From Eledone cirrhosa (Eukaryota), in assembly GCA_964016885.1 (NCBI GenBank), contig OZ024743.1:196354001-196418000 (forward strand): a stretch of DNA of 64,000 nucleotides, written 5' to 3'. Shown piece after piece: positions 22,060 to 60,626 of the stretch (positions are counted from its first letter, which is position 1; each line of letters begins with the position of its first letter). The notes beneath the pieces were generated by a model. The model was given only the letters and a program-made list of their open reading frames with translations. It ran no database searches and was not told where the DNA came from. Position numbers and translations under genes: made by a program.

Positions 22060-22505
22060 TCAATAAACGAAATAATCAGTTCGTGTGTTTTATATCGAAT
22101 AATGTTATTATTCGATTCGTTTGCAAACAGCCTTATACGCTATGTATTTTAGATGGCCATCGGCATCCTTTTGTTCTGGCGGTGACATTTTGTTCGTTCG
22201 ATATGCAAATTAGGCTGATCAGCCGATGTATACTTTAGAGAATATTATACATACTCAAGAGTTCTAACGAGTGACACAAGAGAGAGACACAATCTTGACA
22301 AAGGGCAATACCTCAGAAACGATATTGTAGGTTGTTTCTCTGTGTCACCACTAGAACAACAGGATGGCGTTGGTCATGTAAAATACATAGCGTATGAGGC
22401 TGTTTGCTTGCAAACGAATCGAATATTATTATTATTCAATATAAAACTCACGAATACATTTAGGTATCCGCTATGTTAGAGCGAAAAACGAAATTATCAG
22501 TGTTA
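22060..22505. mobile_element. Foldback Penelope-like remnant with central hammerhead
   Basis: About 22080-22168 is inverted at 22362-22455. Related ends occur at 33240-33290 and 62930-63185. Confidence 0.65.
22271..22348 (+). ncRNA. Type I hammerhead motif with U3-A8 variant core
   Basis: ACAATC-TTGACAA(22295-22301)-AGG gcaata CCT ca-GAAA(22316)-CGATATTG-TA-GGTTGT. Stem I extends to GTGACAC/GTGTCAC. The stem II base is imperfect. Confidence 0.55.
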
Positions 22506-33219: not shown

Positions 33220-33460
33220 TGTAATCTGAATTTTTCGAATATTAATAATAACATTCGATTCGTTTGCAATTATGCAAACAAGCCTCAATTTTATAGCCAT
33301 GTCAGTAGAATGAACACTTCATTCTTGCTCTTGTGTTGGCATGTGAACAGAACTGCAGACATTAAGGTTTCTGGGTATCAACCTTCATCTGTACAGCTCA
33401 CTGTTCACCTGCCAAACTGTCAGAGCTAGTGAAAATATATGCTATTTTCAAAAATACAGT

Positions 33461-33565
33461 GACTGATCGGCCTGATTTGCATATTAGCAGACTGGCTGAT
33501 CAGTCAGATCTGCATATTAGCAGCTCCACTGATCAGCCAGATTTGCATATCAGCAGACTGGCCAG
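33461..33565. repeat. Three copies of an approximately 33-bp tandem repeat containing ATTTGCAT
   Basis: CTGATCRGYCWGATYTGCATATYAGCAG unit; an inverted relative lies at 22202-22224. Confidence 0.7.
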
Positions 33566-33639
33566 TCAGTTTCCTGTATACGAGCGATAACTGGCCGCGT
33601 TTGCCAAATTCAAAAGTAATGTATGTATGTATATATATA

Positions 33640-34526: not shown

Positions 34527-35095
34527 CATAAATATAAGTATGTATACGTACATACATATATGTATACAGACGTACAGTAGTATGTATATACATACATACA
34601 TGCACACATATATATATGTACGTATGGGTTTGCCGAAAATGTATTATAATGTTCGGTTTGTTTGTAAACAAACAGCCCGAATTAAGCCGTACAGTGTTCG
34701 GCAACCATCGTTGCCCTTTTTTTCAACACTGGCAAAGGAACGATGAACTAGTTTCTAGCTTATAAGCTGTCATCAGCACCGTATACCTTCCTGTCAGTCG
34801 ATTGAACGTTTTAAAGTATATACTTTCCTTATGCATATTAACGGCTTGGCAGCCTAATTTATATATGGAGTGAGTTAGTCGGCCGGGCGTACCGGAAACG
34901 ATAAATGGAAAAAATGAAATTTCATTTCTCACTCTTAGTACGGCTGATACTTAAATATAAGTATGTATACGTGCATACATATATGTATACAGACGTACAG
35001 TAGTATGTATATATATACATACATGTACACATATATATATATGTACGTATGGGTTTACCGAACATTTATTATAATGTTCGGTTTGTTTGTAAACA
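34527..35095 (-). mobile_element. Hammerhead-bearing approximately 420-bp repeat unit plus partial tandem copy (pLTR/retrozyme-like)
   Basis: 34530-34668 is repeated at 34953-35095. Inverted homologue at 36650-37305. Confidence 0.7.
34740..34782 (-). ncRNA. Minimal type I hammerhead ribozyme
   Basis: Minus strand ACGGTG-CTGATGA-CAGCTT at AAGCTA-GAAA-CTAG-TT-CATCGT. Confidence 0.7.
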
Positions 35096-35375: not shown

Positions 35376-35577
35376 TTCGTTTCTGAATTTGTTTAGCAAG
35401 ATTCTTTATCTGAAATCGTGTGTTGAAACCGATATTGTTATACTTTGGGAGGGTCATGTTGCCAATAAGAAACACACGCACCAGTTGCTTTCACTTCAAT
35501 TTATTACGTATTTATAAATTTATAAATTTACAAATCTACAAACTTGACCAGGTACCTCCGTAAATCTACAAACTAGA

Positions 35578-35990
35578 CCAGGTACCTCCGTAAAAACACT
35601 TATTAGCAAGACATACCAGTTCTAAAGACCCTCATGTATAGATAATAAATGTATAACCTGTAAAATAAGCCCCCATATTAACTGTAAAACTAGAAATGTA
35701 GTGTATAGCATAAGATGTACTGAAGGACAATGTAGAAACAAAAATATAGTGTACATAGTTGAGACAGCTCGTAGTATAGGGGAACGAATAAATGAACACT
35801 GGCAAGACCTTCAAGATAATAGGGAATCATCTGTGCTCTACCAACATGCTAAGATAGAACACAGGGGTAAATTAGAGAACATAGAAATAAAAATAGAATC
35901 CACACACAGAAAAGATGCAATGTTTAGGCAAATTACAGAGGCAGTAAGCATAAAAGCATACAACCAAAATTAAATAGAAAATATGAGTGG
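35578..35990 (+). pseudogene. Penelope GIY-YIG endonuclease C-terminal fragment with upstream Cys-rich motif
   Basis: In frame: PSCIDNKCITC...NCKTRNVVYSIRC...YIVETARSIGERINEH...LYQH...RQITEAVSI, then frameshifted LNRKYEW. Confidence 0.85.
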
Positions 35991-36225
35991 AACAGCAACA
36001 TCACAACTTACAATTAAGGACAAAATGAAAACACACACGCACATAGAACAAACAACCAACCAACAATAAATAAATAAATAAATAAACAAATAGATAAATG
36101 AACACAAACACACACAGACACCCGGATGTGGCGCATGCGCAAACTGAGCACACAACACACACACAGAAACAAAATGGCGTATGACAGAAGAAAGGAAAGG
36201 CACAGAAACAAAGAAAGGAATCCCC

Positions 36226-36270
36226 AGTCACTGAGGAGGTCACAGAGTGTGTGACGAAAGGACTATGACT
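36226..36270 (+). ncRNA. Minimal type I hammerhead ribozyme in the Penelope pLTR
   Basis: AGTCA-CTGAGGA-g-GTCACA gagtg TGTGAC-GAAA-GGAC-TA-TGACT; stems I and II pair fully. Confidence 0.75.
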
Positions 36271-36542
36271 ATATATAAACAACTATCTGGTTGTGGAACC
36301 AACCAACCAACCAGAAATTTATAAGTTTGTAGATTTGTAAATTTATAAATTTATAAATATATAATAAATTGAAGTGAAAGCAACTGGTGCGTGTGTTTCT
36401 TATTGGCAACATGACCCTCCCAAAGTATAACAATATATATATATACATATATATATACATACATATATATATACATACATATATATATATATACATTCAT
36501 ATATATATACATACATATATATATACATATATATATACATAC

Positions 36543-37347
<805 letters not shown>

Positions 37348-55663: not shown

Positions 55664-55731
<68 letters not shown>

Positions 55732-55741
55732 AACAAGTAAG

Positions 55742-55835
55742 ACCCCGACGGCTGAGCTCAAGCCGTTTCGACGGCTAATTCTGGACTGAATGAAAATTTA
55801 TTCTGGTATTTAAATAGCCGAGCTTATCAAGGGGT
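55742..55835 (-). ncRNA. Type I hammerhead ribozyme with U3-A8 variant core
   Basis: Minus strand ACCCC-TTGATAA-G(ct)CGGCTA...TAGCCGtC-GAAA-CGGCT tgagctc AGCCG-TC-GGGGT; all three stems form. Confidence 0.72.
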
Positions 55836-56701
55836 AATTCCATATATGGTCAAAGAGATAATCACCAGGATTGGTCACATCACAAGTTAGTAGTAAATCT
55901 GTGATGGCAAATTAGTGGGGGAAGGGGTAGCTAAACCTGCCGGTAGGAGAAAAAGGAAGAGGGGGTGGAGTAGACCCATTCATGCGTTGGTAGTGCCGGC
56001 TACAGCTGGGCGTGAGGTCAAAGAGGATACTGGGGAGGGGAGGAGGAAGTCGAAACGGTAAGTAGAACAATGTAGGGTAAAACTATAAAAAGTACTGAGA
56101 ATGAAAAACAAAAAAACAAAAAAGCAGAGTCTGGTTACTAAGACTTAAGTCTCTCGCTATTGCTAGGCTAAAGAAATACATAAATAAATAAATAAACAAA
56201 TAAATGAATAAAAGAATAGATAAATAAATAAATAAATAAATATAATAAAGAATAAAAAAAAATAATAAATAATAATAATAAAAATAAATAGACTAGGTGG
56301 GACGGAAATAAAGGGACCCTAATAAGAGGTATAAGTGCGTGTATCGTACGGTGACGGGTCAACAAAAGGGGGGCCAAAATACTAAAGAGACTACCACGAA
56401 ATAATAAAGGTTTCTACCCCAATCACAGGGCCAGCAACCATCCAGTGCAAGAAAGTAAACTAGTACGAGAATATAATTCAGGGTCCCGAAAAAAATACTA
56501 ATGCTAACTCTAAGGGTACCGCCACGAAACAAAAAGTCTTATACAAGCTACATGAAAGATCGTACGAAGTAAAAGTAAAGAACGGAAAATTAATACAGAA
56601 ACCCCCTAATATATTAGTACTATATATATATACTAATATATTAGTACTATATATATATACTAATATATTAGTACTATATATATATACATATATATATTTA
56701 T

Positions 56702-56777
<76 letters not shown>

Positions 56778-56846
56778 TATGAAGAGAGAAGAAACATTTA
56801 GATATAATTAGTAATAAAATGTATCATACCTAAACTGTTCCTAAAT

Positions 56847-56934
56847 TCCTCGACTACGTAGTTTCGTGGCATAAACAAAAACAATATATCAAAGATATAG
56901 AGTTCTTGCGAGGTCTGCCGACTTATCAAGAGGA
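56847..56934 (-). ncRNA. Type I hammerhead ribozyme with U3-A8 variant core
   Basis: Minus strand TCCTC-TTGATAA-GT(c)GGCA...TGCCAC-GAAA-CTACGTAG-TC-GAGGA; palindromic stem III. Confidence 0.75.
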
Positions 56935-57106
56935 TACCTCATTTTACTAGTCTCAAGAACGCGTCTACACGACGTGAGAAAGAATCCCAAAAGGCGGAGG
57001 GGGAGATAGTCACGCGCAACATCGGTGAAGTTGGCACCTTAACTCACAGTTGGGTGCGGATGCATTCATGTATATATGTGTGTGTCCGCATGTATCTGTG
57101 TGTTTC

Positions 57107-57551: not shown

Positions 57552-57751
57552 CGAAGGAAATGTGGTAAGAAACCAGGTGGACCATAACGCACCAAAGTAC
57601 TCAATACTTAGGGTAGTAGAGTGGGTAATAGGAGTAAGTAAGACCCCGACGGTCTGAGCTCAAGCCGTTTCGACGGCTAATTCTGTACTAAATTACAGTA
57701 CAGAATTAGCCGTCGAAACGGCTTGAGCTCAGCCGTCGGGGTCTTACTTAC
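57550..57751. mobile_element. Foldback element, inverse of 8140-8347
   Basis: About 55-bp inverted arms 57633-57689 and 57697-57751; flanked by (TA)n. Confidence 0.78.
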
Positions 57752-58012
57752 ATATATATATATATGCGCTTTTTTTTTCCTATCTTTGCGTTGCTTTCAT
57801 CCTTCTATGTTGTTTACTTGTCTCACTTGCTTTACGCGATTTACTTGTCCCAATAGCTTTATTTAGCTATTGCTCGCACCAACTGGAGGTATATGATTTT
57901 TAATGCGATGAAATACCAATGAAGGTTGGAAAATCACTGACGAAGGACTATTTTTATCATATGTAACCCATGTGCAACCACGCAGTATTCTTTCTTCTCA
58001 TGTTTTATATAT

Positions 58013-60007: not shown

Positions 60008-60626
60008 TGTTTTGGATGACGGGGTGAACTGACTAAGCAAATTTCGTTGAAGTCTACGGTGGCGAATGGTTAACTTCCTTCGGACATGCGCTTGCGCAGG
60101 CCGGTGGGGGTGAATGGGTACTCACAAGGGAGCGGATGAAAAACCCCAAAACACGCAATTCATCCGTTCCCTTGTCGATCCAATTTGGATTGCCTCGGAA
60201 ACATAACCTTATTATGTAACAAGCTGTCTGATGATGACACGACACTCGCACACAGAACAGTGTGGCCAGTGTCGTCACTGAAATATATATCACAGCATTA
60301 TTATTAAAGGATTTGCGGTGGATTGGCAGTATCGGTAGAGGGTCGCGCGCCTTGCTTTGAAGCATAGAGTTACCTCCTTTTATGATCTGAGTTCAAATCC
60401 CGCCAAGGTTAACTTTGCCTTTCATCCTTACGGGGTCGATAAAATAAAGTACCAGTAATGCACTGGGATAATTGCTGGCCTGGTGCTAAAAGTAGAAACA
60501 ATTATTATTAAAGGATTTGAACATCTGAAACTACTTCGCTTTTCCTTATTCGATATTTACTCGGTCACTCCTATGTAGAAAAAGTACGTTGAGTGCTTGA
60601 ATTGAATTGCATCAATATTTACCCTA
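60006..60626 (+). mobile_element. Hammerhead-bearing long direct repeat, copy 1, with SINE A insertion at 60316-60500
   Basis: Near-identical to 61508-62176; 19-bp TSD ATTATTATTAAAGGATTTG at 60297 and 60501. Confidence 0.8.
60223..60296 (+). ncRNA. Type I hammerhead ribozyme motif
   Basis: GCTGT-CTGATGA-TGAC(ac)GACACT...AGTGTCGTCA-ct-GAAA-TATATA-TC-ACAGC. Confidence 0.68.

What the first reader, a model, noticed from the sequence alone, without database searches (positions are those of the whole stretch)
22261..22357. Third U3-A8 hammerhead (UUGACAA) at the tip of a long hairpin inside a foldback element
Seen: ACAATC-TTGACAA-stem II-GAAA-CGATATTG-TA-GGTTGT, with stem I extended by GTGACAC/GTGTCAC and GTTCTA/TAGAAC, centred between about 90-bp inverted arms. 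It shows no visible similarity to the 55.7 and 56.8 kb motifs, suggesting the variant core occurs in several families. Caveat: two unpaired bases (CA) precede GAAA.
Basis: partly seen in the sequence, partly recalled or inferred. Interest (0 to 1): 0.7.

Follow-up and report, generated by a model that had tools for sequence, protein, structure and literature searches.

The report
Decayed retrozyme copy with swapped hammerhead
This is one worn copy of a 343-base, protein-free jumping element scattered through a large animal genome; it carries a predicted self-cutting RNA with a rare but already published base swap, it was likely pasted in by Penelope-type enzymes, and the 'foldback' arms are an upside-down piece of the same element.

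Summary
The motif is real. It is a type I hammerhead with a U3-A8 core, inside a decayed copy (22194-22495) of a 343-nt circularly permuted repeat family with about 2,250 first-look candidates. U3-A8 is the family state: U3 in 50 of 52 copies, A8 in 49 of 52. Two homologous families in the same window have C3-G8, so the swap is compensatory. Helix III stays self-complementary across five length or sequence variants, which points to cleavage as a dimer. The 'unpaired CA' comes from this copy's own decay: helix II has four positions and a basal A·A mismatch. The arms are an inverted 5' piece, seen in 41 of 108 loci and typical of Penelope insertions. Fixed 3' ends, wrap-around copies and a 16-bp flanking repeat fit a non-autonomous retrozyme copied by Penelope enzymes. 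Two unrelated, very young families in the window also have U3-A8. U3-A8 hammerheads and such retrozymes are published, and this scan has noted them before on other DNA. Cleavage and expression are untested. Verdict: new member of a known kind.

The parts
22065..22080 (+). Left copy of a 16-bp direct repeat flanking the whole insertion (likely target-site duplication)
   Evidence: 15 of 16 bases identical to 22486-22501 (family D7)
22080..22187 (-). Inverted piece of the same unit (unit positions 178-290) joined to the 5' end; the left 'foldback arm'
   Evidence: 88% to the family majority sequence; such pieces occur in 41 of 108 loci
22194..22495 (+). 5'-truncated copy of the 343-nt retrozyme-type unit, ending at the family's fixed 3' end
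   Evidence: 91% to the family majority sequence; 3'-end survey
22203..22210 (+). Octamer ATGCAAAT in a block shared by three related families; possible internal promoter element (inferred)
   Evidence: Alignment A2; its meaning as an snRNA-type distal element is recalled, not from a call
22261..22357 (+). Extended stem I hairpin holding the hammerhead (distal helices, a 5'-side bulge, 6-bp proximal stem)
   Evidence: Fold z -4.5; two adjacent compensatory pair swaps, G-C 53 / A-U 17 and A-U 46 / G-C 17 of 87 rows
22295..22301 (+). Core strand U3 U4 G5 A6 C7 A8 A9 (U3-A8 variant)
   Evidence: U3 in 50 of 52, A8 in 49 of 52, N7 variable in 12 of 52 (hand count)
22302..22315 (+). Helix II: basal A·A mismatch, three pairs, 6-nt loop; two substitutions in this copy, including the last loop A
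   Evidence: position 10.1·11.1 unpaired in 59 of 87 rows
22316..22319 (+). Core G12 A13 A14 A15.1
22319..22328 (+). Helix III strand, self-complementary (with G·U pairs in this copy); predicted to pair with a second hammerhead
   Evidence: No hairpin alone; self-duplex -8.2 kcal/mol; perfect palindrome in 87 of 123 parsed instances
22327..22329 (+). Predicted cleavage triplet GUA, cut after 22329 (GUC in the family majority; GUA and GUU in other subfamilies)
22486..22501 (+). Right copy of the 16-bp direct repeat, overlapping the element's 3' end (microhomology to the target)

Best explanation
The motif is a type I hammerhead sequence with a U3-A8 core in a decayed copy of a 343-nt non-coding repeat family, which is likely a non-LTR retrozyme mobilised by Penelope-like elements (PLEs). 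Likely cycle: a tandem source is transcribed, possibly from an internal octamer-containing promoter (inferred). Two hammerheads pair through their palindromic helix III and cut after GUH (predicted). The unit-length RNA closes into a structured circle, or the uncut multimer is used directly. A PLE reverse transcriptase/GIY-YIG endonuclease primes at an AT-rich target, starting at one fixed site about 180 nt downstream of the cut site. It copies back through the ribozyme, sometimes past one full turn, and often leaves an inverted 5' piece and a 12-16 bp target duplication (inferred from copy anatomy). Shown: family, unit, copy anatomy, core state, covariation. Inferred: cleavage, dimer, circle, promoter, identity of the enzyme. 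This particular copy keeps all core bases but has lost two likely tertiary-contact bases, and it has no tandem partner, so it is probably inert.
For: Family: 2251 first-look candidates, 40 scored. Unit of 343 nt; longest stop-free stretch 63 aa; circular fold z -7.2, 0 of 100 shuffles as stable. Of 108 hammerhead-bearing loci, 41 have an abutting inverted piece and 29 cross the unit junction. Of 63 unit-end motifs, 42 stop within a few bases and 21 were flagged as running into the next unit, 2 of them doubtful by eye. Flanking repeats of 12 nt or more in 14 of 110 loci, against 0-4 in 8 shuffled pairings. With positions 3 and 8 left free: 62 U-A, 27 C-G, 7 U·G, 4 C·A among the 100 listed of 193 matches (hand count). 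C3-G8 relatives are 62% and 65% identical over 277 nt, and one forms its own clade, 100/100. Helix III stays palindromic as its inner part varies (AT, AATT, AATATT, AACGTT, a 9-nt form): 87 of 123 perfect. Cells with a change on both sides: 52 against 26.7±4.2 in shuffles. ORFs of 1239-1286 aa with RT and GIY-YIG motifs (motifs read by eye, recalled) lie elsewhere in the genome; two of the three fetched are flanked by a pair of minimal hammerheads. Literature.
Against: No cleavage assay and no expression data. Only 1 of 108 tracts holds two hammerheads head to tail, so the cis dimer needed for cleavage is rare among sampled copies. All copies are 74-94% to the majority sequence; no young copy or long array was found. 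5' ends do not pile up at the cut site: 6 of 187 segments, about what chance gives, so nothing in the DNA shows cleavage. Core conservation over the flanks is only borderline (p=0.054). Pairs with a change on both sides, 13 against 10.3±2.2, were matched by 84 of 500 shuffles. The covariation reflects few events, and the 3-8 swap is a single one. The minimum-energy fold does not form the open core. No DNA similarity links the unit to the PLE examined. That protein matched only RVT_1, at E 0.007 and below the cut-off. Rfam gives no hammerhead call.
Confidence: 0.8

Rival explanations
1. The unit is the solo pseudo-LTR of an autonomous Penelope-like element; the sampled copies are just 5'-truncated tails.
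For: U3-A8 hammerheads, single motifs and opposite-strand pairs were described for Schistosoma PLE pLTRs. Inverted 5' pieces are typical of PLEs.
Against: Upstream of the unit start lies the unit end (29 of 108 loci), not an ORF tail. No shared upstream extension was seen in 30 loci. PLE protein hits occur in only 3 of 110 loci, outside the unit. The hammerhead has canonical helix sizes, not the minimal form.
Confidence: 0.1
2. The element spreads as a retroposon, but its hammerhead is a non-cleaving or dispensable structural relic, and copying uses uncut multimeric RNA.
For: Every hammerhead-bearing copy reads through the cut site, and there is no pile-up of ends there. A Penelope protein used unprocessed RNA in vitro (PMC11167929). 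The most common subfamily has an A·A mismatch at the base of helix II.
Against: A compensatory 3-8 swap, a free N7, a conserved palindrome, and GUC/GUA/GUU triplets are what selection for catalysis would leave. Two unrelated, very young families keep intact U3-A8 cores.
Confidence: 0.07
3. It is a foldback or MITE-type DNA element whose central hairpin resembles a hammerhead by chance.
For: Arms of about 110 bp surround the motif in the window.
Against: Arms are absent from 67 of 108 loci and have different end points in nearly every locus. They are internal sequence, not termini. Core and helices covary across families.
Confidence: 0.02

Closest known systems
Metazoan non-LTR retrozymes (Cervera and de la Pena 2020, PMC7229834, parts 2-3 of 6 and passages read; Li, Clavereau and Pollet 2026, bioRxiv 10.64898/2026.07.22.740005, parts 1-2 of 5 read)
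   Same: Non-coding unit of 170-400 nt (mussel 350-390), one type I hammerhead per unit, highly self-paired circle, weak palindromic helix III, a basal helix II mismatch in one axolotl family, many monomeric copies, PLEs in the same genome.
   Different: U3-A8 core. Sampled copies are mostly 0.5-1.5 units with inverted 5' pieces rather than arrays; only 1 of 108 loci meets the two-hammerhead 'active' definition. RNA not shown.
U3-A8 minimal hammerheads of Schistosoma mansoni Cercyon PLEs (Cervera and de la Pena 2014, PMC4209133, parts 1-2 of 4 read)
   Same: U3-A8 core in about 1,300 genomic motifs, dimer architecture, opposite-strand neighbours.
   Different: Here helix I is 6 bp with an internal loop and long distal helices, helix II has four positions with a hexaloop, helix III is present, and no ORF is attached.
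Natural U3-A8 hammerheads (Perreault et al. 2011, PMC3088659, passages read)
   Same: States that C3-G8 covaries to U3-A8 in several natural ribozymes, that the swap was proven active in vitro, and that palindromic stem III allows dimers.
   Different: Does not trace the swap between sister families of one genome in the passages seen.
EN+ Penelope-like element insertions (Craig et al. 2021, PMC8557442; Frangieh et al. 2024, PMC11167929; passages read)
   Same: 5' truncation, partial tandems, inverted 5'-truncated copy at the 5' end, internal fixed start of reverse transcription, AT-rich targets.
   Different: The element encodes no protein and shows no sequence link to the one PLE family tested.

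Membership tests
Type I hammerhead ribozyme | Core YUGANRA, GAAA and UH with a 3-8 Watson-Crick pair | tested here: met
   U-A in 79 of 87 aligned rows; C-G in related families
Type I hammerhead ribozyme | Three helices around the core, open at helix I | tested here: met
   Helix I 92.9%, helix III 94.8%, helix II 78.6% of cells paired
Type I hammerhead ribozyme | Purine-pyrimidine pair at 10.1-11.1 (usually G-C) | tested here: inconclusive
   A·A in the main subfamilies (59 of 87 unpaired); A-U and G-C/G·U in others; U·U in a young relative
Type I hammerhead ribozyme | Loop 1-loop 2 tertiary contact (unpaired U1.7 with the terminal loop II A) | tested here: inconclusive
   Both bases are present in the family majority; contact described in PMC11875169 passages; the window copy lacks the loop A; no 3D test
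Type I hammerhead ribozyme | Site-specific self-cleavage | not testable with these tools
   Needs an assay
Type I hammerhead ribozyme | Match to an Rfam hammerhead model | tested here: not met
   a library limit for this variant rather than a defining feature
Non-LTR retrozyme | Non-coding unit of about 170-400 nt with one type I hammerhead | tested here: met
   343 nt; longest stop-free stretch 63 aa
Non-LTR retrozyme | Head-to-tail repetition or circular permutation | tested here: met
   29 of 108 loci cross the junction; only 1 holds two hammerheads in one tract; a related family forms dimers and trimers
Non-LTR retrozyme | Highly self-paired unit RNA | tested here: met
   Circular fold z -7.2
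Non-LTR retrozyme | Long target-site duplications when present | tested here: met
   16 bp in the window; 14 of 110 loci against 0-4 in controls
Non-LTR retrozyme | Expressed as linear and circular unit-length RNA | not testable with these tools
   Needs RNA from this organism
Autonomous Penelope-like element pLTR | Flanks an RT + GIY-YIG ORF | tested here: not met
   (110 loci of 3-9 kb examined; not a full census)
Foldback / MITE DNA transposon | Fixed terminal inverted repeats | tested here: not met
   Inverted pieces are internal, variable, and absent from 67 of 108 loci

The most novel reading that the evidence does not exclude
One genome holds a graded natural series of homologous retrozyme hammerheads: C3-G8 or U3-A8; A·A, U·U, A-U or G-C at the base of helix II; palindromic helix III of five kinds. 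The well-amplified lineages carry a mismatched helix II base and an obligate-dimer helix III. This would mean these ribozymes are selected to be slow, cutting only in tandem transcripts so that the circle survives to be reverse transcribed. The series makes it directly testable whether retrozyme success depends on damped cleavage.
Probability: 0.3. Interest if true: 0.5.

Novelty: new member of a known kind. Interest (0 to 1): 0.28.

Why it matters
Modest. U3-A8 hammerheads, dimer-type helix III, non-LTR retrozymes and Penelope-type inverted 5' pieces are all in print. What this locus adds is a clean within-genome comparison: sister families that differ by the 3-8 swap, subfamilies that keep helix III palindromic through indels and a TA-to-CG change, and three unrelated U3-A8 families in 64 kb, two of them very young. 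Rfam misses all of them, so descriptor searches limited to CUGANGA would undercount these elements.

Tried and rejected
1) Site-specific parasite of the retrozyme (lead from earlier scan notes). A tRNA-type SINE interrupts the unit's (ATT)n tract in 22 of 96 classifiable copies (135 anchors: 72 intact, 24 interrupted, 39 without a downstream match). The control does not support specificity: 114 of 142 SINE ends lie elsewhere, and 23 of 161 other (ATT)3+ tracts carry a SINE tail against 19 of 80 unit tracts. Read as a general (ATT)n preference. 2) U3-A8 as CpG decay of C7-G8: rejected, A8 is in 49 of 52 copies and 23 of 23 in the G10.1 subfamily. 3) A U3·G8 intermediate subfamily: those copies scatter over the tree (bootstrap not settled, 92 of 155 rows kept). 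4) Genomic 'cleavage scars': none, 6 of 187. 6) Exact-pattern scan of metagenome contigs: 0 matches. 7) Rfam: only low-complexity miRNA matches among the 150 of 227 window rows shown. 8) Pfam on 23 window ORFs gave nothing relevant. The PLE-like protein was blank in Pfam, PDB and NCBIfam apart from weak RVT_1; no Atlas result was obtained. 9) The RNA model could be run on the window only, so there is no genome-wide model count. 10) Lunse et al. 2017, Przybilski and Hammann 2007, and the newt satellite-2 snRNA-type promoter are recalled; not held or not found. Paper searches did not turn up this family; no supplements were read, and they may list related families.

Full report
Observation. The 97-nt hairpin folds at z -4.5, although the minimum-energy fold does not leave the core open; forcing it open costs 2.7 kcal/mol. 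The arms are about 110 bp and the motif is not at their centre. Rfam does not call a hammerhead.

The element. The window lies in a 3.0-Gb, microsatellite-rich animal genome. A DNA search gave 2251 first-look candidates, 40 scored. I examined 110 loci: 30 top DNA hits, which are biased to long uninterrupted copies, and 80 taken from pattern hits, which are biased to intact helix II. They define a 343-nt unit, with copies 74-94% to the majority sequence, no ORF (63 aa at most) and a strongly self-paired circular fold, z -7.2. Of 108 loci with a hammerhead-bearing tract, 29 cross the unit junction, 41 have an inverted piece of the unit joined to the 5' end, and 1 holds two hammerheads in one tract. 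The 3' ends are fixed: of 63 unit-end motifs, 42 stop within a few bases in AT-rich DNA and 21 were flagged as running on. The 5' ends are scattered, with no excess at the cut site (6 of 187). Flanking direct repeats of 12 nt or more occur in 14 of 110 loci, against 0-4 in shuffled pairings. In the window the insertion reads: 16-bp repeat, inverted piece 22080-22187, truncated copy 22194-22495, 16-bp repeat. The 'foldback' is therefore the inverted 5'-truncated copy that Craig et al. describe for PLE insertions (PMC8557442, passages). A fixed internal start of reverse transcription at AT-rich targets is shown for a Penelope protein by Frangieh et al. (PMC11167929, passages).

The ribozyme in the family. 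With the core left unspecified, 52 exact matches gave U3 in 50, A8 in 49 and a changed N7 in 12 (hand count), so U3-A8 is the family state and N7 is the free position. Helix II is A·A + GGG/CCC with a 6-nt loop in the main subfamilies, A-U in some copies and G-C or G·U in another subfamily. Helix III cannot fold alone but self-pairs at -6 to -9 kcal/mol where the palindrome is intact. Its inner part varies between subfamilies (AT, AATT, AATATT, AACGTT and a 9-nt form) yet is a perfect palindrome in 87 of 123 parsed instances; 6 more could not be parsed. The distal helix shows two adjacent compensatory swaps. Cells with two-sided changes exceed all 500 shuffles, but the number of such pairs does not (84 of 500), and related copies inflate these counts.

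The 3-8 swap. A covariance model run on the window found related hammerheads at 36969, 34719 and 33325. These belong to two homologous families, 62% and 65% identical over 277 nt, both C3-G8. One has U·U and the other A·A at the base of helix II, and both have self-complementary helix III. With positions 3 and 8 free, the 100 listed of 193 matches were 62 U-A, 27 C-G, 7 U·G and 4 C·A (hand count). This is one event, not 89. In a tree of 92 of 155 rows, which held only the A·A relative, the C3-G8 rows form a clade (100/100, branch 0.44), the U·G copies scatter, and the G10.1 copies nest inside the U3-A8 family next to A-U copies. Bootstrap had not settled and no clade test was run, so the order A·A to A-U to G-C is an inference. 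An octamer block is shared by the three families; reading it as an snRNA-type promoter element is recalled knowledge and a lead from an earlier scan note, untested.

Other U3-A8 families. The 55.8 kb motif has 33 genome hits identical over 171 nt among 41 listed. The 56.9 kb motif lies in a 591-bp tandem unit, with 22 hits identical over 211 nt among 42 listed. Both have intact UUGAUAA cores and no real similarity to this family.

Mechanism. Most likely a non-autonomous retrozyme: tandem transcript, dimer cleavage, circle or uncut multimer, then copying by a PLE enzyme from one fixed site. Long open frames related to a window fragment at 35626-35964 are abundant. Three fetched ones are 1239-1286 aa with RT and GIY-YIG motifs read by eye, two of them between paired minimal hammerheads. 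Library support is only RVT_1 at E 0.007, and no sequence links them to this unit, so the driver is not identified. Cleavage, circles and transcription are not shown. The scarcity of tandem copies and the absence of young ones suggest an extinct family and an inert copy.

Known or new. U3-A8 was reported as natural covariation, active in vitro (PMC3088659, passages), and in about 1,300 Schistosoma PLE motifs (PMC4209133, parts 1-2). Non-LTR retrozymes of this size, with dimer cleavage and a basal helix II mismatch in axolotl, are in PMC7229834 (parts 2-3), and their PLE origin is argued in a 2026 preprint (parts 1-2). Earlier notes of this scan describe similar U3-A8 retrozymes in this and other genomes. 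One lead from those notes, a site-specific parasite, looked promising (22 SINE insertions at one tract) but failed its control. Verdict: a real U3-A8 hammerhead, new member of a known kind, interest 0.28.

Noticed in passing
window 36969-37059 (+) and 34719-34809 (-): Hammerheads of a young homologous family (C3-G8, U·U at the base of helix II, helix III ACUAGU, GUA site). Unit about 430 nt with an internal TA-rich microsatellite; top hits 95-98% identical, tandem dimers and trimers.
   Followed up: partly
window 33230-33600 (-): Third homologous family (C3-G8, A·A at the base of helix II) with the octamer block repeated several times; top hits 95-97% identical; an older subfamily with a 6-nt loop II also exists.
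   Followed up: partly
window 55730-55840 (-), with a self-inverted piece at about 57630-57765: U3-A8 hammerhead with a long helix III in a very young family; homology extends about 900 bp upstream; many identical copies, often in opposite-strand pairs. Link to an ORF not checked.
   Followed up: partly
window 56790-57000 (-): U3-A8 hammerhead with palindromic helix III in a very young 591-bp tandem unit; arrays of several units with a central strand switch. Best candidate for an active U3-A8 retrozyme.
   Followed up: partly
window 35563-36300 (+): 3' end of a Penelope-like ORF (GIY-YIG-type motifs by eye) followed by a minimal hammerhead near 36230; 28,742 first-look candidates, some with open frames over 1,100 aa.
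   Followed up: partly
window 1347, 60228, 61731, 62423 (+): Four further C3-G8 hammerhead-like descriptor hits; the two at 60228 and 61731 are near-identical repeats.
   Followed up: no
L029, L032, L045, L052, L060 and 17 other copies; also many window sites: Abundant tRNA-type SINE with an (ATT)n tail, variably 5'-truncated, inserted in (ATT)n tracts including the one in this unit.
   Followed up: yes
L091, L093, L191, L204: Copies with a minimal ACAUGU helix III and a GUU site occur with U3-A8, C3·A8 and C3-G8 cores; possibly the lineage in which the swap happened. Too few copies to tell.
   Followed up: no
L055, L057, L058 (C6, 96.7-97.9 Mb): Cluster of copies sharing nearly the same inversion junction; likely local duplication of one insertion, so not independent.
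   Followed up: no
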